A stretch of DNA of 64,000 nucleotides from the NCBI GenBank assembly GCA_030655755.1, contig JAUSOQ010000038.1, positions 5,451-69,450 of the forward strand. Reading direction: 5' to 3'. Numbering within the stretch: the stretch's first letter is position 1; each line of letters begins with the position of its first letter. This stretch comes from Coriobacteriia bacterium (GTDB lineage: Bacteria > Actinomycetota > Coriobacteriia > Anaerosomatales > Anaerosomataceae). Positions 7,839-52,813 of the stretch are shown piece after piece. The translations under genes were made by a program, and so were the position numbers. The notes under the pieces are model-generated. The model was not told the DNA's origin. It saw nothing but the letters and a program-made list of their open reading frames with translations, and made no database searches.

Positions 7839-8033
7839 TCAGCCTCCCAGTCGCACGAGGAGCAGCCATACGATCAGCACGGCGACCGCTACCGCATTCA
7901 CGATGCGGAGCGCGATCACGCCGCGACTCGACTTCCCGCCAAGCTTGCGGGCGGCCTGCGCGCTCAGCAGCTGCACGACCACCAGCACGGCAAGCAGCGC
8001 GAAGATAAGTATTATCAGGGCCGTGTTGGTCAC
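7839..8033 (-). CDS. Small two-TM membrane protein (64 aa) inserted between atpB and atpD
   Basis: GTG start overlaps the atpB stop (GTGA). The stop lies 4 nt before the atpD ATG, and its last codons supply the GGGAGG Shine-Dalgarno for atpD. Two hydrophobic helices and G/C-rich third positions. Confidence 0.55.
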
Positions 8034-9448
8034 GCGTCCGCGCCCTCCTCGGCGATCATGTACTTATCGATGAACGCGTCTTTGATGCGCTTCAGCTCAC
8101 CGCGCGGCAGCAGAGCCATGAGCTCCCAGCCGAGCGCAAGCGTGTCGCCCACCGAGCGGTCCTCGCCACTTCCCTGGCGAATGAAGCGGTCCTCGAACGC
8201 ATCGGCGAAGGCGACGAACGCCTTGTCGCTGTCCGAAAGGGCTGCCTCACCGAGGATGACGGCGAGCTCTTTGGCCTGCAGGCCGCGTGCATACGCGCCG
8301 AACAGCTGGTTGGAGAGGTCGGCGTGGTCCTCACGCGTCTTGCCTGGGCCGATGCCCTTCTGCTTGAGACGCGACAGGCTCGGCAGTACCGCGACCGGCG
8401 GATAGATACCGCGACGGTGAAGGTTGCGGTCGAGCACGATCTGGCCTTCGGTGATGTAGCCGGTGAGGTCCGGGATGGGGTGCGTCTTGTCGTCGTCAGG
8501 CATCGACAGGATCGGTACCTGCGTGATGGAGCCCTTGCGGCCCTTGATACGGCCGGCGCGTTCGTAGATGGTGGCAAGGTCGGTGTAGAGGTAGCCGGGA
8601 TAGCCGCGGCGTCCCGGGACTTCCTTGCGCGCGGCCGAGACCTCGCGCAGCGCCTCACAGTAATACGTCATGTCGGTGAGGATGACGAGCACGTGCATGT
8701 CCTTCTCGTACGCCAGGTACTCGGCAGCGGTGAGCGCCATACGCGGAGTCGCGATACGCTCGACGGCCGGGTCGTCTGCGAGGTTGAGGAACAGCACCGC
8801 ACGCTCGATAGCCGAAGTGTTACGGAACTCGTCGATGAAGAAGTCCGCATCTTCGAACGTGATGCCCATTGCGGCGAACACGACCGCGAACTCGCCCTCG
8901 ATAGGCTCACCGATCTCGTCGGCTGCCTTCCCGCGCTGGAGCACCGCGCTCTGGCGCGCGATCTGCGCGGCAAGCTGGTTGTGTGGCAGACCGCTGCCCG
9001 AGAAGATCGGGAGTTTCTGACCACGCACGAGCGGGTTGAGGCCGTCGATGGCCGAGACGCCCGTCTGGATGAAGTCGTCCGGGAAGTCGCGCGCTGTGGG
9101 GTTGATCGGCTGGCCGTAGATCGACATACGCTTCTCGGGAATGATCTCGGGGCCGCCATCCCGCGGACGGCCGAGACCGTCAAAGACCCGGCCGAGCATA
9201 TCCTTGCTCACGCCTAGCTCAAGCGAACGGCCGAGGAACTTCACTTTGGTCTCGGATGGGTTGGAACCGCGCGTGCCCTCGAACGCCTGCACAAGCGCGA
9301 CATCCGCGTTCACTTCGAGCACGTTGCCCAGGGAGCGGGTACCGTTGGGGAACTCCAACTCGACGAGTTCTCCGTAGGTCACGTCCACGACGTTCTCGAC
9401 GAGCAGCAACGGCCCAACGATGTCGCGGGTGGTCATGTACTCGCGCAT
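8030..9448 (-). CDS. atpB: V/A-type ATP synthase subunit B
   Basis: 472 aa, canonical non-catalytic B-subunit sequence (GPLLLVENV..., [17 protein letters not shown]...). TAATG junction with atpA. Confidence 0.95.
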
Positions 9449-11244
9449 TACCGCTCACCTCCCGCGTATACCACGACTTCTTCTTCGTCGGAGCCGTCAC
9501 CCACCAGCTGCGTCTCGATATCGCTGGCGATCTCGTCGAACTCGGCCATCTGCTCCTCGTTCAGGTACTTCGCGCGCGTGATGCGCTCTCGCACCGGCGC
9601 CGCGAAGATGTCTTTGAGTGCAGCGCCCTTGCCGTGCGCCTCTATCGCCTTCTCATGGAAGAGCAGGATCATCTCCAGCAACCTGTTCTGCTGATCAAGC
9701 GACGTGAACTGGTCGTCATCCCGGAAGGCGTTCTGCTGCAAGAAGTCCTCGCGGATCGACTTGGCGGTCTCCATGAGCACCTGCTCATCGGCGGAAAGGG
9801 CCTCCAGGCCGACAAGGCGTACGATCTCGGCGAGCTCGCTCTCGCGCTGCAGGATCGCCATGCAGCGATCGCGGCGCGCTCGAAACTCGGGTCCGACGTT
9901 CTCGTTCCAGTACGGTGTCACCTTGTCGAGATAGAGCGAGTAGCTGGTCAGCCAGTCGATGGCCGGGAAGTGGCGTTCGTAGGCGAGCTTGTCCTGCAGC
10001 GCCCAGAAGACCTTGACGACGCGCAGGGTGTTTTGCACAACCGGCTCAGAAAGGTCACCGCCGGGAGGCGATACAGAACCGACGACCGACACGGAACCCT
10101 CACGCTCGGCCTCGGTGCCAAGAGTGTGCACGCGCCCAGCACGCTCATAGAACGCGGCGAGCCTCGTGCCGAGATAAGCCGGGAAGCCTTCGTCGCCGGG
10201 CATCTCCTCAAGCCGACCGGATATCTCGCGCATCGCCTCTGCCCAGCGACTCGTGGAGTCTGCCTGCAGTACGACTGCGTAGCCCATATCACGGAAGTAC
10301 TCGGCCATCGTCATGCCGGTGTAAACGGACGCCTCACGTGCCGCGACCGGCATGTTCGAGGTGTTGGCCACGAGTACGGTGCGCTTGACGAGCGGCTCGC
10401 CCGAATACGGGTCCACGAGTTCGGGGAACTCCATGAGCACGTCGGTCATCTCGTTGCCGCGTTCACCGCAGCCGATGAAGATGACGACCTCGGCGTTGGA
10501 CCACTTGGCGATCTGGTGCTGCGTGACGGTCTTGCCGGCGCCGAACGGGCCAGGGATACACGCGACGCCGCCCTTGGTGAGCGGGAAGAACGTGTCGATG
10601 ACGCGAGTACCGGTGGTCAGCGGCTCGTTGGCCGAGATCTTCTTGCGGTACGGTCGCGGGACACGGACCGGCCAGACCTGCATCATGATGAGATCGACCG
10701 TCTCGCCTGCCCCGGTGCTCAGGTGACCGACAGGCTCGGTGACCGTGTAGCTACCCGCAGTGATATCCGCGATCGTGCCCGAGAGAGCCGGCGGCACCAT
10801 GACGCGATGCTCGATGACGGCGTTCTCCTGCACGGTGCCGATGATGTCGCCACCTTCGACCTGATCGCCCGCCTTGACCGTGGGCACGAACTCCCAACAC
10901 TTGTCGCGGTCGAGACCCGGCGCGGTAACGCCGCGCGAAAGGAAAGCACCCGCCATGTGCTCAAGCACGTCGAGCGGACGCTGAACACCGTCGTAGACGG
11001 CCTCGAGCATGCCTGGTCCGAGCTCCACCGAGAGCGGTGCGCCCGTCGCTTCCACGGGGTGACCGGGGCCCAAGCCCTCGGTCTCCTCGTATACCTGGAT
11101 CGACGCACGGTCACCGCGCATCTCGATGATCTCGCCCATGAGCCCTTCCTCGCCCACGCGGACCAGGTCATACATCCTGGAATGGACCAGACCTTCCGCG
11201 ACGACGAGCGGACCGGCGACCTTCACAATCCTGCCCTGCTCCAT
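9448..11244 (-). CDS. atpA: V/A-type ATP synthase catalytic subunit A
   Basis: 598 aa with Walker A GPFGAGKT and the non-homologous region typical of A subunits. Confidence 0.95.
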
Positions 11245-11577
11245 CTATTCTTCCTCTTCTCGGATCAACATGCTCGTGCCGAGCGCGCGCTCGATCGCAC
11301 GGCGTATCTTGGCCTCGCCCATACCGCCAGCACTCCCCGCTCCGGGGATGACCGTCACTGCAGGAACGGGTCGATCCAGCACCTCTGCGATCAAATCCTC
11401 CATCGCCTCGTAGACCGGCTCGGTCACGAAGACGACACCATACTCACCTGCCGACAGCCGCCCCCACATCTCGCGGGCCTCCTCGGCATGTTCGACTGTG
11501 AACACCGCAAAGCCAAGCGGGCGGAAACCCGCCACGCTCGTCGAATCACCCACGACCGCAATCTTCGCCACTCTCAC
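11245..11577 (-). CDS. atpF: V/A-type ATP synthase subunit F
   Basis: 110 aa, IAVVGDSTSVAGFRPLGF...VVFVTE pattern, positioned directly upstream of atpA. Confidence 0.85.
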   Translation of the reverse strand: MRVAKIAVVGDSTSVAGFRPLGFAVFTVEHAEEAREMWGRLSAGEYGVVFVTEPVYEAMEDLIAEVLDRPVPAVTVIPGAGSAGGMGEAKIRRAIERALGTSMLIREEEE

Positions 11578-11582
11578 ACCAC

Positions 11583-12572
11583 CTACTCGTACCGCTCGCG
11601 CAGACGGCGGCGGAGCACCTCGGTGGGCACCCCGGACAACCGTCCGATGAGCAGCATTCTCAGCATCATGACTTCAGCCTGACGCGCCATGACATAGCCG
11701 ATGACAGGCTCGGGTCCCGCCGCGACCATCCTCGCACGCTTCAGATAGCGCACGATAAGGTCGTCGGCGAGCACGTCATAGTTGCCGAGGTCAGCGATTC
11801 GATCAGCAGGCACACCCTTGAGCGGTCCGCGCTTCGAAAGCAACTCGGCGATCTCGGTGATCGGCACCGGATAAAGCTTCATCAGCTCGGCTAACGGCGT
11901 GTTGCCGCCGTCGAGCAGTAACGCCTCGGCGTCAGGCGCACGCCAGTTCTTGGAGCGCGCGCGCAGCAACGCCTTCACATTCGCAAGATCGACCATGAGC
12001 GCCGCGAGTCCGGTCAGAAAGCGACTCTTCGAACTCTTCGCGGCCGTGTTCAGGTCTTCAAAGAGCGCATGATCCACGACACCCGTTATCTGTTCCTCGC
12101 TCACAGCGCAGTCCTCGGCCGACAGCGACATGTAGATATCGCGCAAGAACTTGGGCAGCTGCGCGGCAGAACCTTTGACGACCTCTATCGGCACAGTCCC
12201 GAGTCCAACAAGCAGGTCCTCGACAGGCACGCCGAGCAGTTCGGCCTTCAGCCGCGCCTCAAGGTTGGCGTAGTCGTAGCGAACGCGGAAGAACCGGATG
12301 ACCGGTGACGGCAGGTTCGCCGTGACCAGAAAGCCATACAGTTCATCAAGCGCGAGACCGAGCCCACGCTCGATGCCCTCGACCGTTTCGGCCTCCTCAA
12401 GGAAGCGGCCGTATGGAGAGTCGGAGAGCACACGCTTCTGTTCGCCGAACGTTGGCGCGTCAAGCAACCGCTCGTATGTGCCGCCAGAGAGCATGCGGCC
12501 CTCTAAGACGCGAACGCGCCCCACAGCATAGCCATAGCGTATAGGCTCTGTCACCGACTTCCGAAACAGCAC
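11583..12572 (-). CDS. atpC: V/A-type ATP synthase subunit C
   Basis: 329-aa helical protein at the canonical operon position between E and F. Confidence 0.8.
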   Translation of the reverse strand: MLFRKSVTEPIRYGYAVGRVRVLEGRMLSGGTYERLLDAPTFGEQKRVLSDSPYGRFLEEAETVEGIERGLGLALDELYGFLVTANLPSPVIRFFRVRYDYANLEARLKAELLGVPVEDLLVGLGTVPIEVVKGSAAQLPKFLRDIYMSLSAEDCAVSEEQITGVVDHALFEDLNTAAKSSKSRFLTGLAALMVDLANVKALLRARSKNWRAPDAEALLLDGGNTPLAELMKLYPVPITEIAELLSKRGPLKGVPADRIADLGNYDVLADDLIVRYLKRARMVAAGPEPVIGYVMARQAEVMMLRMLLIGRLSGVPTEVLRRRLRERYE

Positions 12573-12578
12573 GCCCTT

Positions 12579-13181
12579 CTACGCCTCCTCTGCCGGAAAG
12601 AGACCGGCCGTCGCTACTGCCATGAGTTCATCGTGGCGTCCGCTCACCATCGAGTCCGGCGAGACCTCCGCACTCACGCGATCGGCCTTGAGCGTGACAC
12701 CATGCGAGATATCAGCCGCCGTGTCCGAGAAGACAAGATCCAGCGTGCACCCAGCTTCAGCGGCTGCGGCGTCTACCGCAGCACGCAGGCCGGCCAGACG
12801 CTTCCGGTCAGCTTCAGCGACACGCACAACATCGCCACCTCGCGCAGTACGAATGATGCCGCTGGCGATCACGCGTGTGTACGTCGCGTCATCGAACGCC
12901 GCAAGCCGCTCCTCAGCCTGGCGAAGCGCCCGCTCCACGAGTGTCCGCTTGCCGGCCAGTAGCTCATCACGCGCCGCAAGGCGCGCGTTGGCGAGCAGCG
13001 TTGCAGCTCGAGACTCGGCATCACGACGGGTATCGTGCAGCGCATGCTCACGATACCGCTCGCCCTCTCGCTTCGCCTCGGCCATGATCGCCTCGGCCTT
13101 CGCCGTAGCACCATCGGTCAGTGCACGCGCTTCAGCGCCAGCATCACTCTCGATGCGGCCTATGATGTCCGCCAGCGCCAC
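12579..13181 (-). CDS. atpE: V/A-type ATP synthase subunit E
   Basis: 200 aa with an Ala/Glu/Arg-rich N-terminal helix plus a globular C-terminus, at the canonical operon position. Confidence 0.8.
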   Translation of the reverse strand: MALADIIGRIESDAGAEARALTDGATAKAEAIMAEAKREGERYREHALHDTRRDAESRAATLLANARLAARDELLAGKRTLVERALRQAEERLAAFDDATYTRVIASGIIRTARGGDVVRVAEADRKRLAGLRAAVDAAAAEAGCTLDLVFSDTAADISHGVTLKADRVSAEVSPDSMVSGRHDELMAVATAGLFPAEEA

Positions 13182-13185
13182 ACGA

Positions 13186-13692
13186 TCACCCCATGTACAT
13201 GTTGCGTAGCGAGAACAGCATCAGAATAGTGGCGATGAGCGAGAATACGGCGTAGGTCTCGACGAGCGCCGGGAAGATCAGCGCCTTACCCGAGTCCTCG
13301 CTGCGACGCGCGATCATGCCGGCGGCGCCAACGGCTGTCATGCCCTGGTAGATCGCGGTCACCAGGCACAGAACGGCGACCGGCAGGCATGATAGAAAGA
13401 TCTTGAAGCCAAGCTCACCCGGAATAGTGGGAGCCGTTTCCTGCAGCAGGATCTCAAAGAACTGCAGCACCAGGATGGCGGTGATCAGCCCGTAGATGCC
13501 CTGCGTACCCGGCATAGCGGCGAGTGGGAGAACCCGTCCGAACTTCTCGGAGTCCTCGGTCACGATACCCGACGCCGTGTTGGAGATCGTCGTGATACCG
13601 ATGGCCGAGCCGATCCCTCCTCCGATGACAGCGAACCCCGCGCCCATAAGCGCCCACGTCATGCCCGACATACCCCAAAAGACCTCGTTCAC
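13186..13692 (-). CDS. atpK: V/A-type ATP synthase proteolipid subunit K
   Basis: 168-aa, Gly/Ala-rich four-helix proteolipid. GTGA overlap with the atpI stop. Confidence 0.9.
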   Translation of the reverse strand: MNEVFWGMSGMTWALMGAGFAVIGGGIGSAIGITTISNTASGIVTEDSEKFGRVLPLAAMPGTQGIYGLITAILVLQFFEILLQETAPTIPGELGFKIFLSCLPVAVLCLVTAIYQGMTAVGAAGMIARRSEDSGKALIFPALVETYAVFSLIATILMLFSLRNMYMG

Positions 13693-15830
13693 GTTGTCTT
13701 GCCTCCTTCCTGCGACCCTACTCGAGGGTGCAGTACGACCGACTTCGTCTTAGGACCCAGCGGCGCGTAATTGCGGCCGCCCCCTTCGTAGAACTTGCTG
13801 AAGAACTCCACGAACTGCAGACGCGTGGGATGCACGAACGCGCCGAGCAGGTTGATGGCCAAGTTGATGACGTGCAGGATAAGCACGACGAGCACCGCGA
13901 ACACGAGACCGACGACCGGTCCCATCAGCTCCATCACGATGAAGCCGAGCTGGTTGGCGACCTGTCCCACGAGCATACCCGCAAGGCCGAGTGCCGCAAG
14001 TCGCGTGTAGGAAAGGAAGTCCGAGATGAGCCCCGACATCCCATACGTGTCGTAAGCGCCGAGGAGCAAGGCAAGCACCGCCTTGCGACCGGTCTTGGAG
14101 ACGAACATAGAGGCCGCGGTCAACCCGAGGAAGACCTGCGAGACGATGGAAGGCCCGCCGAGCGCAGCCGCGGCGAAGAAGGCCACCGCCGAGATGATCC
14201 ACGCCCACCCAAGCGCCTTGTCCCACGCCGGCGCTTCGACCTTCGAGGGAACCTCGAGCACCCGGCCCTTCAGCAGCAACGTCAGACCGAGGCCCCCGAT
14301 GATGAACGCCGACATCGTACCCGTGAGCAACGCGCCCGCCGCGATAGCCGCAAGCAGCACGATCGTCGAGATCTCACCCGCGACGGCGTCACGCCAGTCG
14401 CCTACCTTGATCTGCATGACAGCGCGCGTGACGATGCCGACCAGGATGTGCACCACGCCGAGTGCGATGCTGATCACCAGGAACAGCATGATGTCCTCAA
14501 GCGGGTCGAAGAGCTTGAACGAGAGCAGGAACGACGGAACCAGATCCGTGCTGACCGCGAAGTAGGAGCCCGTCACGACACCCAGAAGCACCGACGCAGC
14601 GCCTCCATAGGTCAGCAGCTCCATGAATTTTTTCACACCGGGACCAACGTCCAACTTCCGCTTGATGAGCTGAGCGATGATCATGAGCGCGATGCCGTAG
14701 CCGACATCCGCTAGCGCCATCCCGAAGAAGATGAAGAAGAAGCCTGCCATCAGCGGCGTGGGATCGACCTCATGGTATTGCGGGCGTCCGTAGAGATCAG
14801 TGAGCACCTCGAACGGCCGGAGCCACTTCGGATTGTCGAGCTCGATCGGTGGGTGATCGTCGGGATCCGGCTCCTCGAAGGTGAGATCTACATCGAAACG
14901 CACCGGCTCCAGCGCGGCCTCAAGCTTGGCACGTCTGGCAGCCATGACCCATCCCGTTATGACTATGGTGCGCTCGGTCGAACCGAAACGCTCGCGGACG
15001 AGCAATATGTCGCGGGCCGATACAAGCGCCTCGGCCAATCCCACAGAGTGCTCATGGCGTTCCTCAGAGAGCTCCTTCGCCCGCTCGAGCATGCGCTGTT
15101 CTTCGGCATCGAGTTCGACCAGACGCTCCTCGGCGATTGAGATCTCCTCGGCGGGATAGTCAGAAAGCTCGGGGAAACCGACCTCGGTGAAGTTGGTGAG
15201 ATGCAGAGTCGAACGTACTTCGTCGACCTGGTCTCTGTGCGCCATGACCACCCAGGCGGACCTACTGCCTACCGGCCCGAGTTCCTCGACCGAGACCTCG
15301 ACGACAGCCTCGCGCAGACGGGCACGGATGGCCTCGCCCTCGGAGGCTGGGACGGTTCCGGTGAACAGGACAACGTGCTCGCTCCCGCGCCACTGGCTGA
15401 TCTGCAGGTGCAGCGGCTCCCACGGACGCAGGTCCGTGATGAGCGCACGCAAACGCTCGCAGTGACGCTCGATGGAGGCTAGACGGTCGGAAAGGAACAC
15501 GCATTCGCGGTAGAGGTCAGAAAACTCCTCGTCCGGCGCAAGAGCGTAGAACTCATCCTCGCTCATGTGGAACTTCTCGGAGATGAAGGAGGCGAACGGC
15601 GCGTCGGACGTGTGATACCTGCCGAGGAACTCCGCGACGAACTGCGCATCCGCGATCTGCTCGTCGAGTGTGGCGATGCGAGCCTCGACATCTGCCGAGA
15701 CGGGTGCCGGAAGTTCGTTCGCGTCCTGCGCGATATCGAGTACGCCAGCCTTCCTCAGGCTGTCGACGAGTGCCTCTGACGCCAGAGCGTGCGAAATCGC
15801 CGTGACTTTGAGCATGCGCGCTACGGCCAC
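13689..15830 (-). CDS. atpI: V/A-type ATP synthase subunit I (stator a-subunit)
   Basis: 713 aa with a soluble N-terminal half and a polytopic C-terminal half ending in RLQFVEFFSKFYEGGG, characteristic of subunit I. Confidence 0.9.
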   Translation of the reverse strand: MAVARMLKVTAISHALASEALVDSLRKAGVLDIAQDANELPAPVSADVEARIATLDEQIADAQFVAEFLGRYHTSDAPFASFISEKFHMSEDEFYALAPDEEFSDLYRECVFLSDRLASIERHCERLRALITDLRPWEPLHLQISQWRGSEHVVLFTGTVPASEGEAIRARLREAVVEVSVEELGPVGSRSAWVVMAHRDQVDEVRSTLHLTNFTEVGFPELSDYPAEEISIAEERLVELDAEEQRMLERAKELSEERHEHSVGLAEALVSARDILLVRERFGSTERTIVITGWVMAARRAKLEAALEPVRFDVDLTFEEPDPDDHPPIELDNPKWLRPFEVLTDLYGRPQYHEVDPTPLMAGFFFIFFGMALADVGYGIALMIIAQLIKRKLDVGPGVKKFMELLTYGGAASVLLGVVTGSYFAVSTDLVPSFLLSFKLFDPLEDIMLFLVISIALGVVHILVGIVTRAVMQIKVGDWRDAVAGEISTIVLLAAIAAGALLTGTMSAFIIGGLGLTLLLKGRVLEVPSKVEAPAWDKALGWAWIISAVAFFAAAALGGPSIVSQVFLGLTAASMFVSKTGRKAVLALLLGAYDTYGMSGLISDFLSYTRLAALGLAGMLVGQVANQLGFIVMELMGPVVGLVFAVLVVLILHVINLAINLLGAFVHPTRLQFVEFFSKFYEGGGRNYAPLGPKTKSVVLHPRVGSQEGGKTT

Positions 15831-19106: not shown

Positions 19107-20471
19107 ATGCTGCAGATCAGCCCGGAGGAGATCGCCGAGACCCTCACCATGATAACCCAGCAGCACCTCGACATCCGCACGGTGACGCTCGGGCTCTCCT
19201 TGGGAGGCTGCGCCGCCGATGACGTTGCGACGGTGGCTGCACGCGTCTATGAGAAGGTGAGCACCGCTGCGCAGCGTCTCGTGCCGGTTGCCGAGGCGAT
19301 CGAGCGCGAGTACGGCATCCCCATCATCAACAAACGCATCGCGGTATCCGCCATCTCCGAGCTGGTATGCGGCAGTGGCCACGACCTCACCCCGATCGCG
19401 GTCGCGATGGATCGCGCCGCTCGCGAGGTGGGTGTCGACTTCATCGGCGGCTTCTCTGCGCTCGTGCACAAAGGCATCGGCGCCGGTGACCGCATGCTCA
19501 TCGATTCGATCCCCGCCGCGCTCGCATCCACCGAACGCGTCTGCTCGTCGGTCAATGTCGCATCCACGCGTGCCGGCATCAACATGGACGCGGTGCTGCG
19601 TATGGCCGAGATCACGCTGGAGACCGCGGCACTGACAGCCGAGCACGACAGCATCGGCTGCGCCAAGCTGGTCGTCTTCTGCAACATGGTGGAGGACAAC
19701 CCCTTCATGGCTGGAGCCGTTCATGGTTCCGGTGAGGCGGACGCCGTCATCAACGTGGGTATCTCCGGTCCCGGCGTCGTGCGCGCAGTCGTGGAGTCGC
19801 TACCAAAAGATGCCGACCTGACAACCGTGGCCGAGGCGATCAAAGCGACGTCGTTCAAGATCACGCGCGCAGGCGAGCTTGTGGCCCGCGAGGCGGCACG
19901 CCGGCTTGGCGTGGAGATGGGGATCGTCGATCTCTCGCTGGCCCCCACGCCCGCCGAAGGCGACAGTGTTGCCGCCATCATCGAGGCTATCGGCGTGAAG
20001 CGCTGTGGCGGTCCCGGCACAACGACCGCGCTCGCGCTGCTCAACGACGCCGTCAAGAAGGGCGGCGCCATGGGCACCAGCTCGATCGGCGGCCTGTCAG
20101 GCGCGTTCATCCCCGTGTCAGAGGACGCGAACATGGTGCGCGCCGTCCGCGATGGCGCACTGACGCTCGAGAAGCTCGAAGCGATGACATCTGTGTGCTC
20201 CGTGGGCCTCGACATGATCGCGATCCCCGGCGACACGGCAGTTGAGACCATCGCCACCATCATGTCCGACGCCTACGCCATTGGCGTCATCAACAGCAAG
20301 ACCACCGCAACACGACTCATACCGGCCATTGGCAAAGTGGCAGGCGACACTGTGGACTTTGGCGGGCTGCTCGGTGCAGCACCGGTCATGAACGTGAGCC
20401 AGTGGGCGGGGACCGTACTGGCGCGACGCGGCGGGCGCTTCCCCGCCCCTCTCAGCAGCCTGCGCAACTAA
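19107..20471 (+). CDS. UPF0210 (DUF711) family protein
   Basis: 454 aa. N-terminus [29 protein letters not shown] and overall sequence are typical of UPF0210. Confidence 0.9.
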
Positions 20472-20563
20472 GGTTTCGCAATCATCCTGCCGATGTATGA
20501 TGCGTAGTAGTGTGTGCATCATCACATGGTGATGCCGAACGGCAGCAAGGCAGAGAGAGACGC

Positions 20564-21376
20564 ATGATGCGGATAGCCAAGACCAGGTTCCGCCTGGGAC
20601 GCGTACGGTCAGGCATCCTCGCCGTGCTTGTCCTATGCCTTCTCGCATCAGTGAGTCCTCTCGCATACGCCGTCGTCGCCTCGGCAGGTCCTACCACGAC
20701 TCTTTCCTCGTACTACGCAGGGGCAACGGATGTCACCTACGAGTTCGGGACCTTTGCTATGGAGGCCGGCGAGACCCTTTTTATGATCGAGTTCACATTC
20801 ACGGGGGACGCAAACGTGACGGCGGCAACACTGCTCGAGCCCGCGGGGACACTCTCGGTGTCAGGACAGACCGTGAGTATCGCAGTGTCGCCCACGCTGC
20901 CGCCTAGCACCGAGTTCGTTGTCCGTATCGGTGGCGTCACCAACCCGACGACGCCGGGTGACTATCCGCTGAACGGCCCTTATACGAGGATCTCTTTCTC
21001 CTACAAGAACGCGAAACTCCAAACCAAGACGGACAGCATACTCATAGCCCACTACACCATCACCGAAGCGCCGTTCCTCACCATGACGATTCCCACCGCT
21101 GACATCGACTTTGGAACCGTGGAGCCCGACGCAGCAGTGCCCTATGGCCCCGGCACGATCCAGGTGGACGTCACGTCCAACTACGGCTACACACTGACCC
21201 GCGAGACGACAGGCGATGTCGCGAGCCTGGGTCTCGTGATCACTGGCGACGCTGCCGGATCGAAGAATGCGGGCACGTCGTCCTACTACGACGCCGTCAC
21301 CATCCTTCCTGATTGGAACACCCCTGCCGGGGTTCCCCTGGTCGCCACGGTGACATACACCGCAGCCATCCCGTAG
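20564..21376 (+). CDS. Secreted two-domain beta-rich protein; C-terminal domain is paralogous to the next gene
   Basis: ATG at 20564. Signal peptide RFRLGRVRSGILAVLVLCLLASVSPLAYA. C-terminal LTMTIPTADIDFGTVEPD...VDVTSNYGYTLTRETTGD...ILPDWNTPAG...VTYTAAIP aligns with the 21584 gene. Confidence 0.7.
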   Translation: MMRIAKTRFRLGRVRSGILAVLVLCLLASVSPLAYAVVASAGPTTTLSSYYAGATDVTYEFGTFAMEAGETLFMIEFTFTGDANVTAATLLEPAGTLSVSGQTVSIAVSPTLPPSTEFVVRIGGVTNPTTPGDYPLNGPYTRISFSYKNAKLQTKTDSILIAHYTITEAPFLTMTIPTADIDFGTVEPDAAVPYGPGTIQVDVTSNYGYTLTRETTGDVASLGLVITGDAAGSKNAGTSSYYDAVTILPDWNTPAGVPLVATVTYTAAIP

Positions 21377-21403
21377 GAACCCCGTACACAGAGCCGCAGC
21401 CTC

Positions 21404-21421
21404 ACCGTTCATCCGTTCAAC
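21404..21421 (+). promoter_or_regulatory. Tandem overlapping ACCGTTC-type boxes (ACCGTTCATC / TCCGTTCAAC)
   Basis: Read directly and verified against the frame of ORF 20861..21424. Lies in the intergenic region upstream of the 21584 gene. Confidence 0.4.
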
Positions 21422-21583
21422 CATCCTTGTGTGCCTTCTGTCACACTATTCTGCCGTACGGCAAGAGCGTATTCATTTCCATACAGCTCCGCCCGATAGA
21501 GGAATCAGAACGAGCCGGCGCGAGTTCTACGAAATCAAATCAAGTCTCGATACGCAGTCTGTCTCAAGGAGGAGAAGAGAGAA

Positions 21584-22045
21584 ATGAAGAAGACACTTCT
21601 GATAGGGATCGTCGCAGCGGCACTGGTCATGGGAATGGTCGCGTACGCGACAGCAGCGACAACCACCGCAACAGTCAGCGCAACGGTCAACCCGAAGCTC
21701 GAGATCACGACGAATGCCACGAGCATCACCTTCGATGCCGTGGATCCCGGTGCCACGAACACCAAGTCCACGACGTTCACAGTCAAGTCGAACAACAGGT
21801 TCACCGTCGCCAGAAGCGAAGTGGTGGGAGACTACCTGCATCCCGTCGTAGCCAATGATTCCTACAACTACAGCGACTTCTCGACCGACATGCATGTTTC
21901 CTATGCGGATCTCGACCAGGGCACCGGCGCCTACGCCAAGGGCGGAGCCGTTGAGGTCAAGGACACCCTCACGATTGCACCCACCTGGGATGTCGCCTCT
22001 GGTGCCTACTCCGGTGCGTATCTGTACACCGTGACCCAGATCTAA
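21584..22045 (+). CDS. Secreted small beta-rich protein (paralog of the C-terminal domain of the 20564 gene)
   Basis: AAGGAGGAG Shine-Dalgarno. Signal peptide MKKTLLIGIVAAALVMGMVAYATA. LEITTNATSITFDAVDPGATNTKSTTFTVKSNNRFTVARSEVVGD...TIAPTWDVASG...LYTVTQI. Followed by a strong terminator. Confidence 0.75.
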   Translation: MKKTLLIGIVAAALVMGMVAYATAATTTATVSATVNPKLEITTNATSITFDAVDPGATNTKSTTFTVKSNNRFTVARSEVVGDYLHPVVANDSYNYSDFSTDMHVSYADLDQGTGAYAKGGAVEVKDTLTIAPTWDVASGAYSGAYLYTVTQI

Positions 22046-22089
22046 CGCCGCGCCGGCAGGTGAGTGTCTGACTCACCCAGGGTCTCGGA

Positions 22090-22122
22090 GAACCCGCCTG
22101 GAATCCAGGCGGGTTCTTTCTT
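22090..22122 (+). terminator. Intrinsic terminator after the 21584 gene
   Basis: GAACCCGCCTGGAATCCAGGCGGGTTC (11-13 bp stem) followed by TTTCTT. Confidence 0.8.
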
Positions 22123-22129
22123 GCGTCCC

Positions 22130-22164
22130 AAATGACCGTTCGTCCTCTACATGAACGGTCATTT
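22130..22164. promoter_or_regulatory. 12-bp inverted repeat AAATGACCGTTC-N11-GAACGGTCATTT containing a perfect ACCGTTCGTC box (22135-22144)
   Basis: Read directly; coordinates verified against the frame of ORF 21969..22178. Could be a protein operator or an RNA hairpin. Confidence 0.5.
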
Positions 22165-22216
22165 CCCTGGATTCCCAAGCGTATCTAGCTAGCCATTCAT
22201 CCGTTAGTAGTCCGCA

Positions 22217-22264
22217 ACCGTTCATTCGTCACACACTCATACCGTTCGTCTACCGATAAACGGT
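22217..22264. promoter_or_regulatory. Cluster of ACCGTTC boxes: ACCGTTCATT (22217-22226,+), perfect ACCGTTCGTC (22241-22250,+), ACCGTTTATC (22255-22264,-)
   Basis: Read directly; coordinates verified codon by codon against ORF 22197..22529. Lies 40-90 nt upstream of the 22303 gene start. Confidence 0.5.
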
Positions 22265-22302
22265 ATAGCAGACGAGAACAACGGCAACGGATGGGGGTGT
22301 GA

Positions 22303-22590
22303 GTGATGAAGCGGACGATCGTAGCGGTCCTGACCGCAGCGGTGCTCATCATCTCCCTGCTCCCCGCCGTGGCAGCCGCAGACAGCGGAACCGTCAATGT
22401 GAGCGTCCACGTGGGCGAGCGCATCGTGCTCACCCCAACAGCAGACGGAGTCACCGTACAGGCCAACATCCCGTGGCAGCTGGTCGTCGATACGACCGAG
22501 GGCGCACTCACCGTGACCGGTGAGCCCACAAGCGGCTACCGGGTGGAGCTTCCCGAGACAGCCACAGCGTACTGGGTGGTCACCGACTAA
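22303..22590 (+). CDS. Secreted small protein (95 aa) with W-x-L-like motifs
   Basis: GTG 22303 / ATG 22306 after GGGGGTG. Signal peptide MKRTIVAVLTAAVLIISLLPAVAAA. Mature part is beta-rich and contains PWQL and a terminal YWVV. Confidence 0.65.
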   Translation: MMKRTIVAVLTAAVLIISLLPAVAAADSGTVNVSVHVGERIVLTPTADGVTVQANIPWQLVVDTTEGALTVTGEPTSGYRVELPETATAYWVVTD

Positions 22591-22638
22591 GAAGAGATAT
22601 CCTCACCGTTCGGCGCGGTAGAAGGAGAGCCTGCTGAG

Positions 22639-23691
22639 CTACTCGGCAGGCTCTTCGGATTCAGCGGACACGTCTACATCAGCCGGGGCGACCTTCTCCG
22701 CACGTCGCACTCTGCGGTGCGCAGCCCTGACAGCCTGCTTCCACGACAGATACATCAAGATGAGCGCCACAACAACGACCACGACGATCGCCAACCACAG
22801 CGGCGCGATCCACACGGTCCGGTCCTTGACCACCTGATCTTGGATCGTCGACCCGGGAGAAGCTCCCTCGCGGGGGTACTCCACCGTGAGCCTGGCCGTG
22901 AAACGACCCAACGTGGGGATGCCCTCGGCCACGCCGGAGCGTTCGAGATTGGTTCCCGCATACACTACCGTCTCCGACGCCACCGCGCTGCCCCATACCT
23001 CGTTCTCATCACCGTCGAGCAGCGCCAGTCTGGCTGTGACCATCTTGTCGATGTTGCCTTCGTTGCGGATCAGGAAGACCCACGGCATCTCATTACCCAG
23101 AATGGGGCTGCGTACACTGAAGGGCCGCACATCCATGCGCTCGACAAGTTCACCCTGTACGCGGATACGTATACGCGCACCCAGCCTACCCGCCACCTTC
23201 GCAGATGACCCCTCGGAGGTGTCATCGGGCGTGAGCATCTCGAAGAAGAGCAGCATCTGGTGGTCTCCGGGGGCCACTTCCTCCGGAACCGTGAAGGAGA
23301 ACTTCACCGGCGTTCGCTCACCAGGCGCAAGCGTTATCAACGGCGTGTTGCCCAGCGACTGCGTCGAGCTGGGGATTTGAATACTGATCCACGCCGTAGG
23401 ATTGGACGCGAAACCTTCCGAGGTCCTATTAGGAACCTCGTAGGTGACGCCGCCCTTCTCGTCGATGACCTGGACGCCGGAGTAGACGAGGACATCGAGT
23501 GTCTCATCGCCGTCGTTCATCACCACGAGTTCGCCCTCACCGCTCCCCCCTGGAGCGACTGAGAAGTCGAACGACCCGGTGGAAAGCCCGAGTGTCCTCT
23601 CGGCCACCGCAGTGCCGGGAAGCAGGGCGACCGCCAACATGCAGGCAAGCGCGATGACGGTCAATCGGCGGCGGAACGTCACGCCGCGCAT
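22639..23691 (-). CDS. Cell-surface protein resembling DUF916/DUF3324 (WxL-interacting, CscA-like): signal peptide, two beta domains, C-terminal TM anchor
   Basis: Signal peptide MRGVTFRRRLTVIALACMLAVALLPGTAVA. FDFSVAPGGSGEGELVVMNDGDETLDVLVY...GGVTYEV...ITLAPGERTPVKFSFTVPEEVAPGDH. C-terminal WLAIVVVVVVALILMYL followed by a basic tail. Family assignment is from memory of the domain patterns. Confidence 0.75.
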   Translation of the reverse strand: MRGVTFRRRLTVIALACMLAVALLPGTAVAERTLGLSTGSFDFSVAPGGSGEGELVVMNDGDETLDVLVYSGVQVIDEKGGVTYEVPNRTSEGFASNPTAWISIQIPSSTQSLGNTPLITLAPGERTPVKFSFTVPEEVAPGDHQMLLFFEMLTPDDTSEGSSAKVAGRLGARIRIRVQGELVERMDVRPFSVRSPILGNEMPWVFLIRNEGNIDKMVTARLALLDGDENEVWGSAVASETVVYAGTNLERSGVAEGIPTLGRFTARLTVEYPREGASPGSTIQDQVVKDRTVWIAPLWLAIVVVVVVALILMYLSWKQAVRAAHRRVRRAEKVAPADVDVSAESEEPAE

Positions 23692-24434
23692 CAGATACCC
23701 ACCGCGCCGCGGAACTCTTTGACCTGACGCCGTGCCACGGGGATCTGGGTCTCATCCCGGTCCACAACGACCACGACATAGGAGCCATCGACGCGCAGGA
23801 TCTCCTTCACGCGGTTCAGGTTGATCATGTAGCTGCGATGCACGCGCTGGAAGACGTCTTTGGAGAGCTTCTCTTCCAGATCGCTCAGCGTGAGGTCCAC
23901 GAGGTACTGGTTCTCGTAGGTGTGCACGTAGGTGGACTTGTTCTTCGCTGAGATGTAGATGATGTCCTCGATATTGAGCAGCACCGTGCGGCCACCTTTG
24001 CGGACGGCGAGTTTGCGAAAGTCGCCTTCACCCGCCAGACCGGGAGCAGCGACAGCCGGACGCACACGCACCAGACTGCGGACTCGGGCGGACAGCTCCA
24101 TGAGATTGAACGGCTTGGTGACGTACTGCTGCACGCCTTGTTTGAAGGCGAGTATCTTGGCGAGATCTTGAGTCTTGGCTGTGAGCATGATCACGGGGAT
24201 GTCGGCGGTCGCCGGGTTGTTGCGGATCTCCATGAGCGCCATCCAGCCGTCGACGCGCGGCATCATGATGTCCAGCAAGATGACGTCGACCGGCTCCCGA
24301 TCGAGCACCTCAAGGGCTTCGGCGCCATCACCCGCACTGACGACATGCATGCCGTCGGCTTCAAACCCCATGCGGATCATCTCTTGGATGGACACGTCGT
24401 CGTCGACGACCAGCACGTTGATAGGATCCGACAT
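23691..24434 (-). CDS. Response regulator with REC + LytTR DNA-binding domain (no adjacent kinase)
   Basis: ATG 24434 after GAGGAGG. VLVVDDD...DVILLDIMMP receiver and a C-terminal LytTR pattern (IIYISAKNKSTYVHTYENQYLVDLTLSDLEEKL...FQRVHRSYMINLNRV). Its stop codon shares 1 nt with the start codon of the 22639 gene. Confidence 0.9.
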   Translation of the reverse strand: MSDPINVLVVDDDVSIQEMIRMGFEADGMHVVSAGDGAEALEVLDREPVDVILLDIMMPRVDGWMALMEIRNNPATADIPVIMLTAKTQDLAKILAFKQGVQQYVTKPFNLMELSARVRSLVRVRPAVAAPGLAGEGDFRKLAVRKGGRTVLLNIEDIIYISAKNKSTYVHTYENQYLVDLTLSDLEEKLSKDVFQRVHRSYMINLNRVKEILRVDGSYVVVVVDRDETQIPVARRQVKEFRGAVGI

Positions 24435-24551
24435 TGACCCTCCTCGGCCTGCAGGCCTGTCTGCCACAGGCGAACGACCATTCATCGCTTGGCGGCGCCG
24501 AACATCAGGACGTTTCGCTTGCAGAGTATACCGCACGTCTGACCCGACGCA

Positions 24552-52127: not shown

Positions 52128-52813
52128 CAGCCACCGTCCTTGCGGACCCGATATCCCACGCCTCTGACCGTCTCGATGAAGCGGGGAGCAGCAGCGTCAT
52201 CGCCCAGCTTCTCGCGCAGATGTCGGATGTGCACGTCGACACCACGCAGATCGACGAAGTCCGAGAAGCCCCATACCGCTTCGAGCAGGCGCTCTCTTGA
52301 GAAGACGACACCGGGGTCGCGCAGCATGGTGACCAGAAGGTCGAACTCCTTCGCTGTGAGAACGACCTCCTGCCCATCGACCTTTGTCTCGCGCCTTGCG
52401 GTGTCGAGCCACAATCCGCCATGGACATGCACGTGTTCGGCGCCGTCCGCCGCCGCAGTACGACGCATGACCGCCCGCACGCGGGCCACGAGCTCGGGCG
52501 GGCTGAACGGTTTGGTGACGTAGTCGTCTGCCCCGTCCTCGAGCAGCGAGATCTTCTCTAGCTCATCTGCGCGAGCAGTGAGCATGATGATGGGCACGGT
52601 GGAGCGCTTCCGGATCGACCGGCACACCTCGGCGCCGTCGATGCCCGGAAGCATGATGTCGAGGATGACGATATCGTACGGTTCGGCCAACACCGCCTCG
52701 AGCGCGGCAGCGCCGTCAGCAGCCTGCCCGACCTCGAAGCCGGCGGCTGACAGATAGACCGACACGAGGTCGCGGATCTTCGCCTCATCATCGACGACGA
52801 GCACTTTGGGCAT
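52127..52813 (-). CDS. OmpR-family response regulator
   Basis: KVLVVDDE...IVILDIMLPGIDG receiver and a winged-helix C-terminus RFIETVRGVGYRV. 1-nt overlap with the kinase gene. Confidence 0.95.
   Translation of the reverse strand: MPKVLVVDDEAKIRDLVSVYLSAAGFEVGQAADGAAALEAVLAEPYDIVILDIMLPGIDGAEVCRSIRKRSTVPIIMLTARADELEKISLLEDGADDYVTKPFSPPELVARVRAVMRRTAAADGAEHVHVHGGLWLDTARRETKVDGQEVVLTAKEFDLLVTMLRDPGVVFSRERLLEAVWGFSDFVDLRGVDVHIRHLREKLGDDAAAPRFIETVRGVGYRVRKDGG

What the first reader, a model, noticed from the sequence alone, without database searches (positions are those of the whole stretch)
21404..22290. Repeated ACCGTTCGTC boxes (AlgR-type LytTR core) in the intergenic regions of the surface-protein locus
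The 10-mer ACCGTTCGTC occurs twice perfectly within 106 nt (22135-22144 and 22241-22250). Each copy is paired with an inverted near-copy 4-5 nt away: ACCGTTCATG on the minus strand at 22150-22159, and ACCGTTTATC on the minus strand at 22255-22264.

Further variants:
- ACCGTTCATT at 22217-22226, which starts 24 nt upstream of the second perfect box.
- GCCGTTGTTC on the minus strand at 22276-22285.
- Tandem ACCGTTCATC / TCCGTTCAAC at 21404-21421, upstream of the 21584 gene.
- ACCGTTCGGC at 22605-22614.
- GCCGTTCGGC on the minus strand at 20534-20543, just before the 20564 gene.

As I recall, CCGTTCGTC (with CCGTTGTTC as a weaker variant) is the core binding sequence of AlgR, the archetypal LytTR regulator, at the Pseudomonas algD promoter. 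A LytTR regulator is encoded about 1.4 kb away. Two exact 10-mers this close together are very unlikely by chance. The array looks like the cis-regulatory code of this locus.
Basis: partly seen in the sequence, partly recalled or inferred. Interest (0 to 1): 0.65.

Follow-up and report, generated by a model that had tools for sequence, protein, structure and literature searches.

The report
Binding boxes of a LytTR regulator
The repeated ACCGTTC(G/A)TC boxes are real, are conserved across dozens of uncultured Coriobacteriia, and are most likely the DNA sites through which the neighbouring LytTR response regulator controls its own gene and a variable surface-protein gene cassette; this is a solid but fairly ordinary regulon prediction.

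Summary
The boxes are real and not chance. ACCGTTCGTC occurs twice in 64 kb (0.21 expected), both times in the 257-nt gap before the 95-aa gene. Five of the window's 28 ACCGTT lie within 130 nt.

I compared 80 orthologous loci from Coriobacteriia/Anaerosomatales MAGs. Unbiased 7-mer counts make CCGTTC(G/A)TC the most widely conserved word in two places:
- the intergenic regions of the surface-protein cassette;
- independently, the 120 nt upstream of the LytTR response-regulator (RR) gene, including genomes that lack the cassette.

A matrix hit lies upstream of the regulator in 42/77 loci, upstream of cassette genes in 38/90, and upstream of any other gene in 2/710.

The boxes form 20-21-nt direct repeats or convergent pairs, which is the LytTR pattern. 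The core equals the published AlgR consensus. No covariation supports an RNA hairpin. In a relative, the box region is an untranscribed gap in two of four metatranscriptomes.

Best reading: these are operator sites of the adjacent orphan LytTR regulator. It probably represses its own gene and controls a variable, WxL-interacting-protein-like surface cassette. Binding and the sign of regulation are inferred, not shown.

Three peripheral boxes (20534, 22276, 22605) are not conserved. The 22130-22164 palindrome is lineage-specific. Verdict: a new member of a known kind.

The parts
22241..22250 (+). Promoter-proximal box ACCGTTCGTC upstream of the 95-aa gene. Its CCGTT core is invariant in 14 species.
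   Evidence: 17.5 bits; invariant columns.
22255..22264 (-). Inverted box ACCGTTTATC, convergent with the proximal box (12-mer offset 14). It overlaps GATAAA. It is kept only in the window, L001-3, L005 and L058.
   Evidence: (17.0 bits).
22253..22259 (+). CCGATAA element, 2-3 nt after the proximal box in every p95 promoter. GATAAA (22254-22259) is the probable -10 hexamer.
   Evidence: GCCGATA 8-fold enriched; C-G-A invariant. One search shows the same box-N3-hexamer geometry in five regulator promoters. RNA contig ends in L015 fit this.
22217..22230 (+). Upstream partner boxes: ACCGTTCATT (22217-22226) overlapping TTCATTCGTC (22221-22230). The second is the conserved one and lies 20 nt upstream of the proximal box.
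   Evidence: spacing profile.
22192..22206 (+). Composite GCCATTCATCCGTTA (a box plus a second CCGTT offset by 8). It is conserved as RCCGTTCRTCCGTTAAT in L001, L003, L006 and L011.
   Evidence: (9.9 bits).
22130..22164 (.). Distal convergent box pair inside a perfect 12-nt inverted repeat (ACCGTTCGTC / ACCGTTCATG). It is lineage-specific. Analogous convergent pairs occur in L015, L018, L028, L032, L035, L040 and L062.
   Evidence: (I8).
21404..21421 (+). Tandem composite ACCGTTCATCCGTTCAAC, 163-180 nt upstream of the 153-aa gene. It is conserved in L003 and degenerate in L002.
   Evidence: (16.5 bits).
21430..21463 (+). Conserved block of the 153-aa gene's promoter: weak box GCCTTCTGTC (21433-21442), N10, then palindromic box-like GCCGTACGGC (21453-21462). 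The period is 20 nt.
   Evidence: block shared by L002, L003, L006, L007, L011, L035, L058; GCCGTAC, GTCACAC, CACACTA enriched.
24477..24486 (+). Degenerate box ACCATTCATC in the leader of the regulator gene, about +33 to +42 from the inferred start and on the opposite strand to the gene. It is conserved in L001-L005.
   Evidence: (11.1 bits).
24525..24530 (-). -10 hexamer TATACT (GGTATACT) of the regulator gene's promoter.
   Evidence: GGTA[TC]A[AC]T conserved in 74 of 78 upstreams.
23691..24434 (-). Orphan response regulator, receiver plus LytTR domain. The acidic pocket D11-D13, D55, T85 and K107 are present.
   Evidence: Response_reg 1e-27, LytTR 3e-27; best LytTR family BtsR, below cut-off; (70-95% identical orthologues in 80 genomes).
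22639..23691 (-). 350-aa membrane-anchored surface protein. Its start overlaps the regulator's stop by 1 nt (TGATG). It is a distant relative of WxL-interacting protein (DUF916).
   Evidence: 24 of 41 orthologues hit WxLIP_PGBD, best E 1.7e-7.
22306..22590 (+). 95-aa secreted protein. It is the first gene downstream of the main box array.
21584..22045 (+). 153-aa secreted beta-sandwich protein.
20564..21376 (+). 270-aa secreted protein, a paralogue of the 153-aa protein. Other genomes carry 850-960-aa versions with Ig-like domains.
22089..22122 (+). Intrinsic terminator of the 153-aa gene: a 14-nt perfect stem followed by TTTCTT. It separates that gene from the box array.
   Evidence: I5; -27.3 kcal/mol.
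22626..22654 (.). Hairpin between the convergent 95-aa and 350-aa genes; a bidirectional terminator.
   Evidence: I9; -27.7 kcal/mol.

Best explanation
The 10-nt boxes, consensus (T)RCCGTTC(A/G)TC, are operator sites for the response regulator (RR) encoded at 23691-24434. This is an orphan receiver+LytTR protein.

**Shown**
- The boxes are the most conserved words in the non-coding DNA of the surface-protein cassette and in the regulator's own promoter. This holds across about 80 species of Coriobacteriia/Anaerosomatales.
- They occur almost nowhere else in about 1 Mb of flanking DNA.
- They come as 20-21-nt direct repeats and as convergent pairs.

**Inferred**
- The regulator is presumably phosphorylated at D55 by an unlinked kinase. 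It then binds pairs of boxes as a dimer or higher oligomer.
- At its own promoter the boxes lie on or just after the -10 and the start site, so it most likely represses itself.
- The 350-aa surface protein is translationally coupled to the regulator, so its level should follow the regulator's.
- At the 95-aa gene's promoter, two boxes are centred near -41 and -20 of a weak GATAAA -10 with no -35. A third, inverted box lies over the -10, and further boxes lie at about -70 and -120/-135. I favour occupancy-dependent control:
  - activation from the upstream pair by substituting for the -35, about 50%;
  - shut-off when the -10-overlapping site is filled, or plain repression, about 40%.

The output is the amount of a fast-evolving set of secreted Ig-like/WxL-interacting-type envelope proteins.
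For: **Clustering in the window**
-.

**Unbiased word counts**
- In the cassette intergenic regions of 49 loci, the words present in most loci are ACCGTTC (26), CCGTTCA (25), CCGTTCG, GTTCGTC and GTTCATC.
- Anchoring on CCGTT alone recovers C-R-T-C downstream and T-R upstream.
- In the 120 nt upstream of the regulator gene (78 loci), the top words are CCGTTCG (37 loci), CGTTCGT (36) and GTTCGTC (35). These rank ahead of the -10 element.

**Specificity**
- Matrix hits of 13 bits or more lie upstream of the regulator in 42/77 loci (15/24 of those without the cassette), upstream of cassette genes in 38/90, and upstream of other genes in 2/710.
- Densities are 3.13, 0.47 and 0.04 per kb.

**Architecture**
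- In an alignment of 14 species, the proximal CCGTT and the CGA of CCGATAA are invariant while the flanks diverge.
- Same-strand partners peak at 20-21 nt. Opposite-strand partners peak at offset 14.
- Published LytTR sites are two direct or inverse 9-11-nt repeats separated by 11-13 nt (PMC4847170).
- The published AlgR core is CCGTTCGTC, with CCGTTTGTC as a weaker variant (PMC4064291).
- The YehT/BtsR site oligo holds GCCGCTCA and ACCGCTTA. BtsR is the regulator's best full-length family match.

**Operon link**
- The regulator's stop overlaps the start of the 350-aa gene. That order is kept in 55 loci.

**Regulator promoter**
- Of 68 boxes, 49 are centred downstream of -12 relative to the start inferred from the conserved GGTA[TC]A[AC]T.

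**RNA**
- In relative L015, two of four biocathode metatranscriptomes leave 9094-9252 uncovered. All boxes lie in that gap. The flanking genes are covered, and the contigs stop 9-14 nt before the ATG.
Against: - No binding, expression or start-site experiment exists for any of these organisms. The regulator-box link is guilt by association plus family resemblance.
- The sign of regulation is unresolved. The -10 of the 95-aa gene could be GATAAA (22254) or TATAGC (22264), which moves the boxes by 10 nt.
- Box positions in regulator promoters vary widely, from -48 to +77. That suits a repressor or roadblock but not a single fixed mechanism.
- 27 of 78 regulator upstreams, and 17 of 55 cassettes, have no box at my thresholds.
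- The window's own regulator promoter has only a degenerate box (CCATTCATC).
- Two of the four metatranscriptomes do cover the box region. This could be read-through or DNA.
- Many loci are related, so counts of loci overstate the number of independent events.
- Only +/-7 kb per genome was visible, so the regulon may be larger. Another regulator with the same specificity cannot be excluded.
Confidence: 0.75

Rival explanations
1. The boxes are genuine conserved operator sites, but a different transcription factor encoded elsewhere in the genome reads them. The LytTR regulator is merely one of its targets.
For: - The conservation data show that something reads the boxes, not which protein does.
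- The regulator is an orphan with no kinase nearby.
- Boxes over the core promoter of the regulator gene would fit any repressor.
Against: - The box equals the AlgR (LytTR) core and resembles the BtsR site.
- Its 20-21-nt direct and convergent pairings are the LytTR pattern.
- Within +/-7 kb, the boxes track only the regulator gene and the cassette operonically fused to it, in about 80 genomes. They stay with the regulator gene when the cassette is absent.
- Autoregulation is usual for this family (my own knowledge: agr, com, blp, pln).
Confidence: 0.13
2. The inverted repeats (22130-22164 and 22239-22266) act as RNA hairpins (terminator, attenuator or stabiliser), and the 'boxes' are just their arms.
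For: If transcribed, both would fold well: -17.9 kcal/mol (z = -5.4) and -11.4 kcal/mol (z = -4.7). 22130-22164 lies just after the 153-aa gene.
Against: - A much stronger terminator with a T-run already ends that gene at 22089-22122. The repeat has no T-run.
- Across 14 species the proposed proximal helix is 62.5% paired. That is no better than shuffles (283 of 500 reach it), and covariation does not exceed the controls. The left arm (the box) is invariant while the right arm decays.
- Most boxes in other genomes are direct repeats or single.
- The box region is untranscribed in two metatranscriptomes of L015.
- There is no Rfam match.
- The distal repeat is absent from the closest relatives.
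Confidence: 0.03
3. The repeats are recombination or mobile-element sequences: inverton ends, cassette-exchange sites or miniature repeat elements. This would be linked to the presence/absence polymorphism of the cassette.
For: - The cassette is missing in about 24 of 80 loci and varies in gene content.
- Inverted copies flank about 80-110 nt of promoter DNA (I18).
Against: - No recombinase or transposase is in the locus.
- The boxes are also upstream of the regulator gene in cassette-less genomes.
- They do not sit at the cassette borders.
- The single DNA run assembles one contig with no alternative joints, though contigs hide rare variants.
- Only 10 nt are conserved, not a longer element.
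Confidence: 0.03
4. Chance clustering of a GC-rich word.
For: With up to 2 mismatches the 10-mer is no more frequent than expected in the window (102 found against 92.6 expected).
Against:: the clustering, the cross-species conservation and the positional specificity are all far beyond chance.
Confidence: 0.01

Closest known systems
AlgR (with AlgZ/FimS) of Pseudomonas aeruginosa and its binding sites
   Same: - It is a LytTR response regulator.
- The 9-nt core CCGTTCGTC is identical, and the tolerated variant CCGTTTGTC is also seen here.
- Sites work in either orientation and at very different distances from the start site, including downstream of it.
- AlgR both activates and represses (PMC4064291).
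   Different: - The phylum is different (Actinomycetota, class Coriobacteriia).
- There is no adjacent AlgZ-type kinase, and orthology to AlgR was not shown.
- The boxes here are tightly clustered in 20-21-nt direct repeats and convergent pairs next to the -10, rather than being isolated far-upstream sites.
- The targets are secreted Ig-like envelope proteins, not alginate or pilus genes.
BtsR (YehT) and YpdB of Escherichia coli (LytS/LytTR systems)
   Same: - BtsR is the best full-length family match of the regulator.
- The YehT site has ACCGCTYA-like direct repeats (oligo in PMC4847170). These are close to the RCCG(T/C)TCA variants found here.
- These are small, local regulons.
   Different: - The score is far below the BtsR family cut-off (100 bits against 246).
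- There is no LytS-type kinase next door.
- The targets differ: there a transporter, here surface proteins.
Peptide quorum-sensing LytTR regulators (AgrA, ComE, BlpR, PlnC/D, FsrA)
   Same: - They recognise paired 9-11-nt repeats with an 11-13-nt spacer at weak promoters, and they regulate themselves (PMC4227749; PMC4847170).
- The LytTR fold is shared, though similarity is weak.
   Different: - There is no peptide, kinase or exporter gene in the locus.
- The boxes overlap the core promoter of the regulator gene, which suggests negative rather than positive feedback.
- The box sequence differs from ACAGTTAAG-type sites.
WxL / Csc cell-surface-complex gene clusters of Firmicutes
   Same: - The 350-aa protein has a signal peptide, Ig-like domains, a C-terminal membrane anchor and weak WxLIP_PGBD (DUF916) similarity in 24 of 41 orthologues.
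- It is clustered with several small secreted proteins.
   Different: - Pfam detects no WxL domain in the small proteins.
- All WxLIP matches are weak: the window's protein scores 20.6 bits against a cut-off of 27.3.
- LytTR control has not been described for WxL clusters (my own knowledge).

Membership tests
LytTR-regulator operator sites | A regulator with a LytTR DNA-binding domain is encoded at the locus. | tested here: met
   Response_reg 1.1e-27 and LytTR 3.3e-27 at 23691-24434(-). LytTR domain against PDB 3d6w, 1e-9.
LytTR-regulator operator sites | Two direct or inverse repeats of 9-11 nt separated by about 11-13 nt (PMC4847170). | tested here: met
   The 10-nt boxes have same-strand partners peaking at 20-21 nt, giving a 10-11-nt spacer. 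Convergent partners peak at offset 14. The convergent spacing is shorter than the textbook value.
LytTR-regulator operator sites | The sites are conserved at the promoters of the regulator's own operon and of adjacent targets. | tested here: met
   42/77 regulator upstreams and 38/90 cassette-gene upstreams have a hit, against 2/710 other genes.
LytTR-regulator operator sites | The regulator physically binds the repeats. | not testable with these tools
   This needs EMSA, footprinting or DAP-seq.
AlgR/AlgZ system | Core binding sequence CCGTTCGTC. | tested here: met
   compared with PMC4064291.
AlgR/AlgZ system | The regulator is orthologous to AlgR. | tested here: inconclusive
   The best curated LytTR family is BtsR, at 100 bits and below its cut-off. 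No AlgR model appeared among the 25 families listed. I made no direct comparison with an AlgR sequence.
AlgR/AlgZ system | A cognate AlgZ/FimS-type sensor kinase is encoded next to the regulator. | tested here: not met
   The neighbours are a gltD-like oxidoreductase and the 350-aa surface protein. The same synteny holds in 80 loci. The only kinase tested in the window (50712-52127) is paired with an OmpR-type regulator.
Peptide quorum-sensing LytTR modules (Agr/Com/Blp/Pln) | An adjacent histidine kinase, peptide precursor and processing/export genes. | tested here: not met
   none is present in the locus in any of the genomes.
WxL / Csc surface-complex cluster | A DUF916 (WxLIP_PGBD)/DUF3324 protein with a C-terminal membrane anchor. 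| tested here: inconclusive
   The window's protein scores E 4.8e-4 and 20.6 bits, below the cut-off of 27.3. 24 of 41 orthologues match, best E 1.7e-7. The anchor WIAPLWLAIVVVVVVALILMYLSW was read. No DUF3324 hit.
WxL / Csc surface-complex cluster | WxL-domain proteins in the cluster. | tested here: not met
   There is no Pfam hit for the 95-, 153- or 270-aa proteins or their orthologues. The fold model of the 153-aa protein is a generic beta-sandwich with no significant PDB match.
Intrinsic terminator / structured RNA element | A conserved helix with compensatory changes; a T-run for a terminator. | tested here: not met
   pairing equals the shuffles; no Rfam match; no terminator-pattern hit; the fold is possible but no T-run follows.

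The most novel reading that the evidence does not exclude
This would be a lineage-wide orphan LytTR regulator, conserved at 70-95% identity across Anaerosomatales-like Coriobacteriia. It would use the same DNA word as Pseudomonas AlgR but work mainly from inside the core promoter.

- One box abuts the -10 at -25 to -16. The same geometry occurs in the 95-aa gene's promoters and in five regulator promoters.
- Other boxes lie over the start site.

On this reading it is a LytTR repressor/switch with negative feedback. It would set the expression of a presence/absence-polymorphic, fast-evolving WxL-interacting-type (possibly filament-forming) surface cassette. That would be a new promoter geometry for the family. 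The shared word could reflect either convergence or deep conservation of the LytTR-DNA code between phyla.
Probability: 0.25. Interest if true: 0.55.

Novelty: new member of a known kind. Interest (0 to 1): 0.42.

Why it matters
- It gives a concrete, testable regulon for an uncultured but widespread group of subsurface, digester and biocathode Coriobacteriia, for which no regulatory biology is known. The regulon comprises the regulator, a 10-nt word, promoter architecture and target genes.
- It shows that the AlgR word CCGTTCGTC is read, apparently by a LytTR protein, in a distant phylum. This is useful for predicting LytTR specificity from sequence.
- It ties an orphan response regulator to a variable cell-envelope cassette that is likely to matter for attachment (electrodes, minerals, partners).
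- It is not a new kind of system. The gain is annotation and a clean case for experiment.

Tried and rejected
1. **7-mer enrichment over whole cassettes, coding DNA included.** It was dominated by codon and amino-acid composition (Thr/Tyr/Val-rich proteins). I redid it on intergenic DNA only, after a simple GC3-based gene call that I validated on the window.
2. **Identity of the small proteins.**
   - Pfam and NCBIfam gave nothing usable. The weak PamT and BcfA hits cover signal-peptide-proximal residues only.
   - The word-indexed homology search found one relative.
   - The AlphaFold model had pLDDT 58, and no Foldseek PDB match reached E below 1e-3. I report only a 'generic Ig-like beta-sandwich'. 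The Pam pilus paper was not pursued.
3. **RNA data for the window itself.** Only one groundwater DNA run holds it, so I used a relative (L015) with metatranscriptomes. These are contigs, not reads, so start sites are only bracketed.
4. **Structural variants or invertons in the source metagenome.** One contig, no joints. This is weak evidence.
5. **Consensus sigma-70 and terminator scan.** No hits. The lineage's own -10 emerged only from the regulator-promoter alignment.
6. **Rfam.** Nothing.
7. **PDB sequence search.** Receiver-domain hits swamp the list. The LytTR domain alone gives 3d6w, and ComE/AgrA weakly.
8. **Kraxenberger 2012 (YehT site).** The paper is not held. I used the oligo printed in PMC4847170 instead.
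9. **Metagenome-wide pattern scan for paired boxes.** Considered and not run. I estimated hundreds to thousands of chance matches for a 16-18-nt degenerate pattern, so the result would not have been interpretable.
Full report
**1. Observation**

- ACCGTTCGTC is exact at 22135-22144 and 22241-22250. It occurs nowhere else in the 64-kb window. The expectation is 0.21, and 2 of 100 shuffles reach two copies.
- The listed variants are present (21412-21421 and 22276-22285 I read).
- The relaxed 10-mer is not enriched window-wide (102 found against 92.6 expected). What stands out is the clustering: 5 of the 28 ACCGTT hexamers lie in 22135-22264.
- Box 1 sits inside a perfect 12-nt inverted repeat at 22130-22164.
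- The window has about 62% G+C, and the box-bearing gaps are the least GC-rich stretches.

**2. Gene context**

The genes around the boxes are as follows.
- A DUF711 gene at 19107-20471(+).
- Three genes for secreted proteins without a Pfam family: 270 aa at 20564-21376, 153 aa at 21584-22045 and 95 aa at 22306-22590, all (+).
- Convergent with them, a 350-aa membrane-anchored protein at 22639-23691(-) with weak WxLIP_PGBD similarity.
- A receiver+LytTR response regulator at 23691-24434(-).
- A gltD-like oxidoreductase.

The regulator's stop overlaps the 350-aa gene's start by one base (TGATG). The receiver has the usual acidic pocket, D55, T85 and K107 (read). No kinase is adjacent. The one kinase I found in the window is paired with its own OmpR-type regulator. 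The regulator's best curated LytTR family is BtsR, far below the cut-off.

A strong terminator at 22089-22122 ends the 153-aa gene just before the box array. Another, at 22626-22654, separates the convergent genes.

**3. Related loci**

A scan of one genome per species returned 80 loci, L001-L080. These are MAGs labelled Coriobacteriia, Anaerosomatales or 'Actinobacteria' from groundwater, sediments, digesters and a biocathode. Their regulator is 70-95% identical.

Synteny is gltD - regulator - [350-aa, 95-aa, 153-aa, 270-aa-type genes] - DUF711. In 55 loci the cassette is present, with the 350-aa gene fused to the regulator's stop. In about 24 loci the regulator is followed directly by DUF711. 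So the regulator is a core gene and the cassette is a variable insert. Cassette proteins evolve fast, at 30-50% identity. The 270-aa type also exists as 850-960-aa proteins with FixG_C, MG2 and Ig-like domains. 24 of 41 orthologues of the 350-aa protein hit WxLIP_PGBD, best E 1.7e-7.

**4. The motif is conserved and specific**

I called genes with a GC3-based heuristic that reproduces the window's genes.
- In the cassette intergenic DNA of 49 loci, the 7-mers present in the most loci are ACCGTTC (26), CCGTTCA (25), CCGTTCG, GTTCGTC, CGTTCGT and GTTCATC.
- Anchoring on CCGTT alone, the flanks give T-R-CCGTT-C-R-T-C.
The fifth, at 41873, is inside a gene.
- Hit density at 13 bits or more is 3.13 per kb in cassette intergenic DNA, 0.47 in other intergenic DNA and 0.04 in coding DNA outside the cassette.

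**5. The key new result**

Nearly all 'other intergenic' hits lie 30-110 nt upstream of the regulator gene.
- A hit occurs there in 42 of 77 loci: 27/53 with the cassette and 15/24 without it.
- A hit occurs upstream of 38 of 90 cassette genes.
- A hit occurs upstream of only 2 of 710 other genes.
- A matrix-free count confirms this. In the 120 nt upstream of the regulator gene, the top 7-mers over 78 loci are CCGTTCG (37), CGTTCGT (36) and GTTCGTC (35). These rank ahead of the promoter's own -10 words.

These regulator-upstream sites were not used to build the matrix. The word therefore follows the regulator gene, not merely the cassette. That is the classical signature of an autoregulated local regulator.

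**6. Architecture**

- Upstream of the 95-aa gene, 14 species share [weak box]-N10/11-[box]-N2-3-CCGATAA. The proximal CCGTT and the CGA are invariant while the flanks diverge.
- In the window, the conserved upstream partner is TTCATTCGTC at 22221-22230, 20 nt before the proximal box.
- Around strong boxes, same-strand partners peak at 20-21 nt and opposite-strand partners at offset 14. This matches the published description of LytTR sites as two direct or inverse 9-11-nt repeats separated by 11-13 nt (PMC4847170).
- The 153-aa gene's promoter has a 34-nt block (21430-21463) conserved in at least seven distant loci. I read it as a weak box, N10, then a palindromic box-like GCCGTACGGC. The tandem composite at 21404-21421 lies upstream of it.
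- The core CCGTTCGTC and the variant CCGTTTGTC are exactly the published AlgR sites.

**7. Position relative to promoters (inferred)**

- Regulator promoters carry an obvious -10, GGTA[TC]A[AC]T. In the window it is TATACT at 24525-24530(-).
- I placed the start 7 nt after the hexamer. Of 68 boxes of 11 bits or more, 26 are then centred between -12 and +20, 23 further into the leader, 10 in the -36 to -12 region and 9 further upstream. This favours negative autoregulation.
- Five regulator promoters have box-N3-TATA(A/C)T. The 95-aa gene's promoters have box-N3-GATAAA in the same orientation. GATAAA (22254-22259) is therefore my preferred -10 there.
- That choice puts the boxes at -25 to -16 and -45 to -36, with the inverted box (22255-22264) on the -10. 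TATAGC (22264-22269) remains an alternative.
- In relative L015, two of four biocathode metatranscriptome assemblies cover the regulator, the 350-aa and 95-aa genes up to 9-14 nt before the ATG. They resume at the 3' end of the 153-aa gene. The 160-nt box region between is left uncovered. This fits a start just after GATATA and an untranscribed operator region. The other two runs do cover it, which could be read-through or DNA.

**8. Rivals**

- **RNA hairpins.** The repeats would fold. But the proposed proximal helix is no better paired than shuffles, and it shows no covariation across 14 species. The right arm decays while the box stays. There is no Rfam match. A real terminator already precedes the distal repeat, and that repeat is missing from the closest relatives.
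- **Recombination or mobile repeats.** There is no recombinase. The boxes are not at the cassette borders. The source metagenome gives one contig with no alternative joints.
- **A different regulator reading the boxes.** This cannot be excluded without experiments, but the LytTR-type word, the spacing and the strict association with the regulator gene argue against it.

**9. What is weak or wrong in the finding**

- The boxes at 22605-22614, 20534-20543 and 22276-22285 are not conserved. The first is part of a block that lacks one T in relatives, CACCGT(T)CGGCGCGGT.
- The window's own regulator promoter has only a degenerate CCATTCATC, although that variant is conserved in L001-L005.

**10. 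Verdict**

The finding is a real, conserved cis-regulatory array. It is best explained as the operator set of the adjacent orphan LytTR response regulator, which controls itself and a variable surface-protein cassette. The sign of regulation at the cassette is open.

It is a new member of a known kind. Its use is as annotation, and as a clean experimental entry point into an uncultured lineage.

Noticed in passing
window 22252-22259, 21492-21500, 20488-20496: A second conserved promoter word, TGCCGATA(A/C/G), precedes all three cassette genes. GCCGATA is 8-fold enriched in cassette intergenic DNA. It may be the -10 (GATAAA-type) or a site for another factor.
   Followed up: partly
window 21430-21463: The 34-nt block TGTGCCTTCTGTCACACTATTCTGCCGTACGGCA upstream of the 153-aa gene is conserved almost letter for letter in distant loci (L002, L003, L006, L007, L011, L035, L058). 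That is more conserved than a simple pair of boxes needs to be.
   Followed up: partly
window 20510-23691; loci L001-L080: The surface-protein cassette between the regulator gene and DUF711 is presence/absence polymorphic (absent in about 24 of 80 species) and varies in gene number. The 270-aa type also occurs as 850-960-aa multi-Ig proteins.
   Followed up: partly
window 23689-23693: The regulator's stop and the 350-aa protein's start overlap (TGATG), implying translational coupling of a transcription factor with a membrane-anchored surface protein. The arrangement is kept in most loci.
   Followed up: partly
window 21507-21528: An imperfect palindrome, AGAACGAGCCGGCGCGAGTTCT, in the long leader of the 153-aa gene is conserved in L002 and L003. 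It may be a 5'-UTR structure.
   Followed up: no
window 22600-22620: The block CACCGT(T)CGGCGCGGT just after the 95-aa gene's stop is conserved in L001-L005. It only mimics a box in the window.
   Followed up: partly
L015:5300-14200: The regulator and the cassette of Coriobacteriaceae bacterium EMTCatB1 are transcribed in four biocathode metatranscriptomes. RNA contigs run continuously from the gltD-like gene into the regulator gene.
   Followed up: partly
window 7839-15830: A V/A-type ATPase gene cluster on the minus strand: catalytic A and B subunits at 9448-11244 and 8030-9448, and an I-subunit-like gene at 13689-15830.
   Followed up: no
window 50712-52813: A classical HAMP-HisKA-HATPase kinase with an OmpR-type response regulator; the only kinase found among the window proteins scanned.
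   Followed up: no
L041, L044, L061, L065, L078 (regulator upstream): These loci have two same-orientation boxes 45 nt apart, one at about -48 to -39 and one over the inferred start (-3 to +7). This hints at looping or cooperative repression.
   Followed up: no
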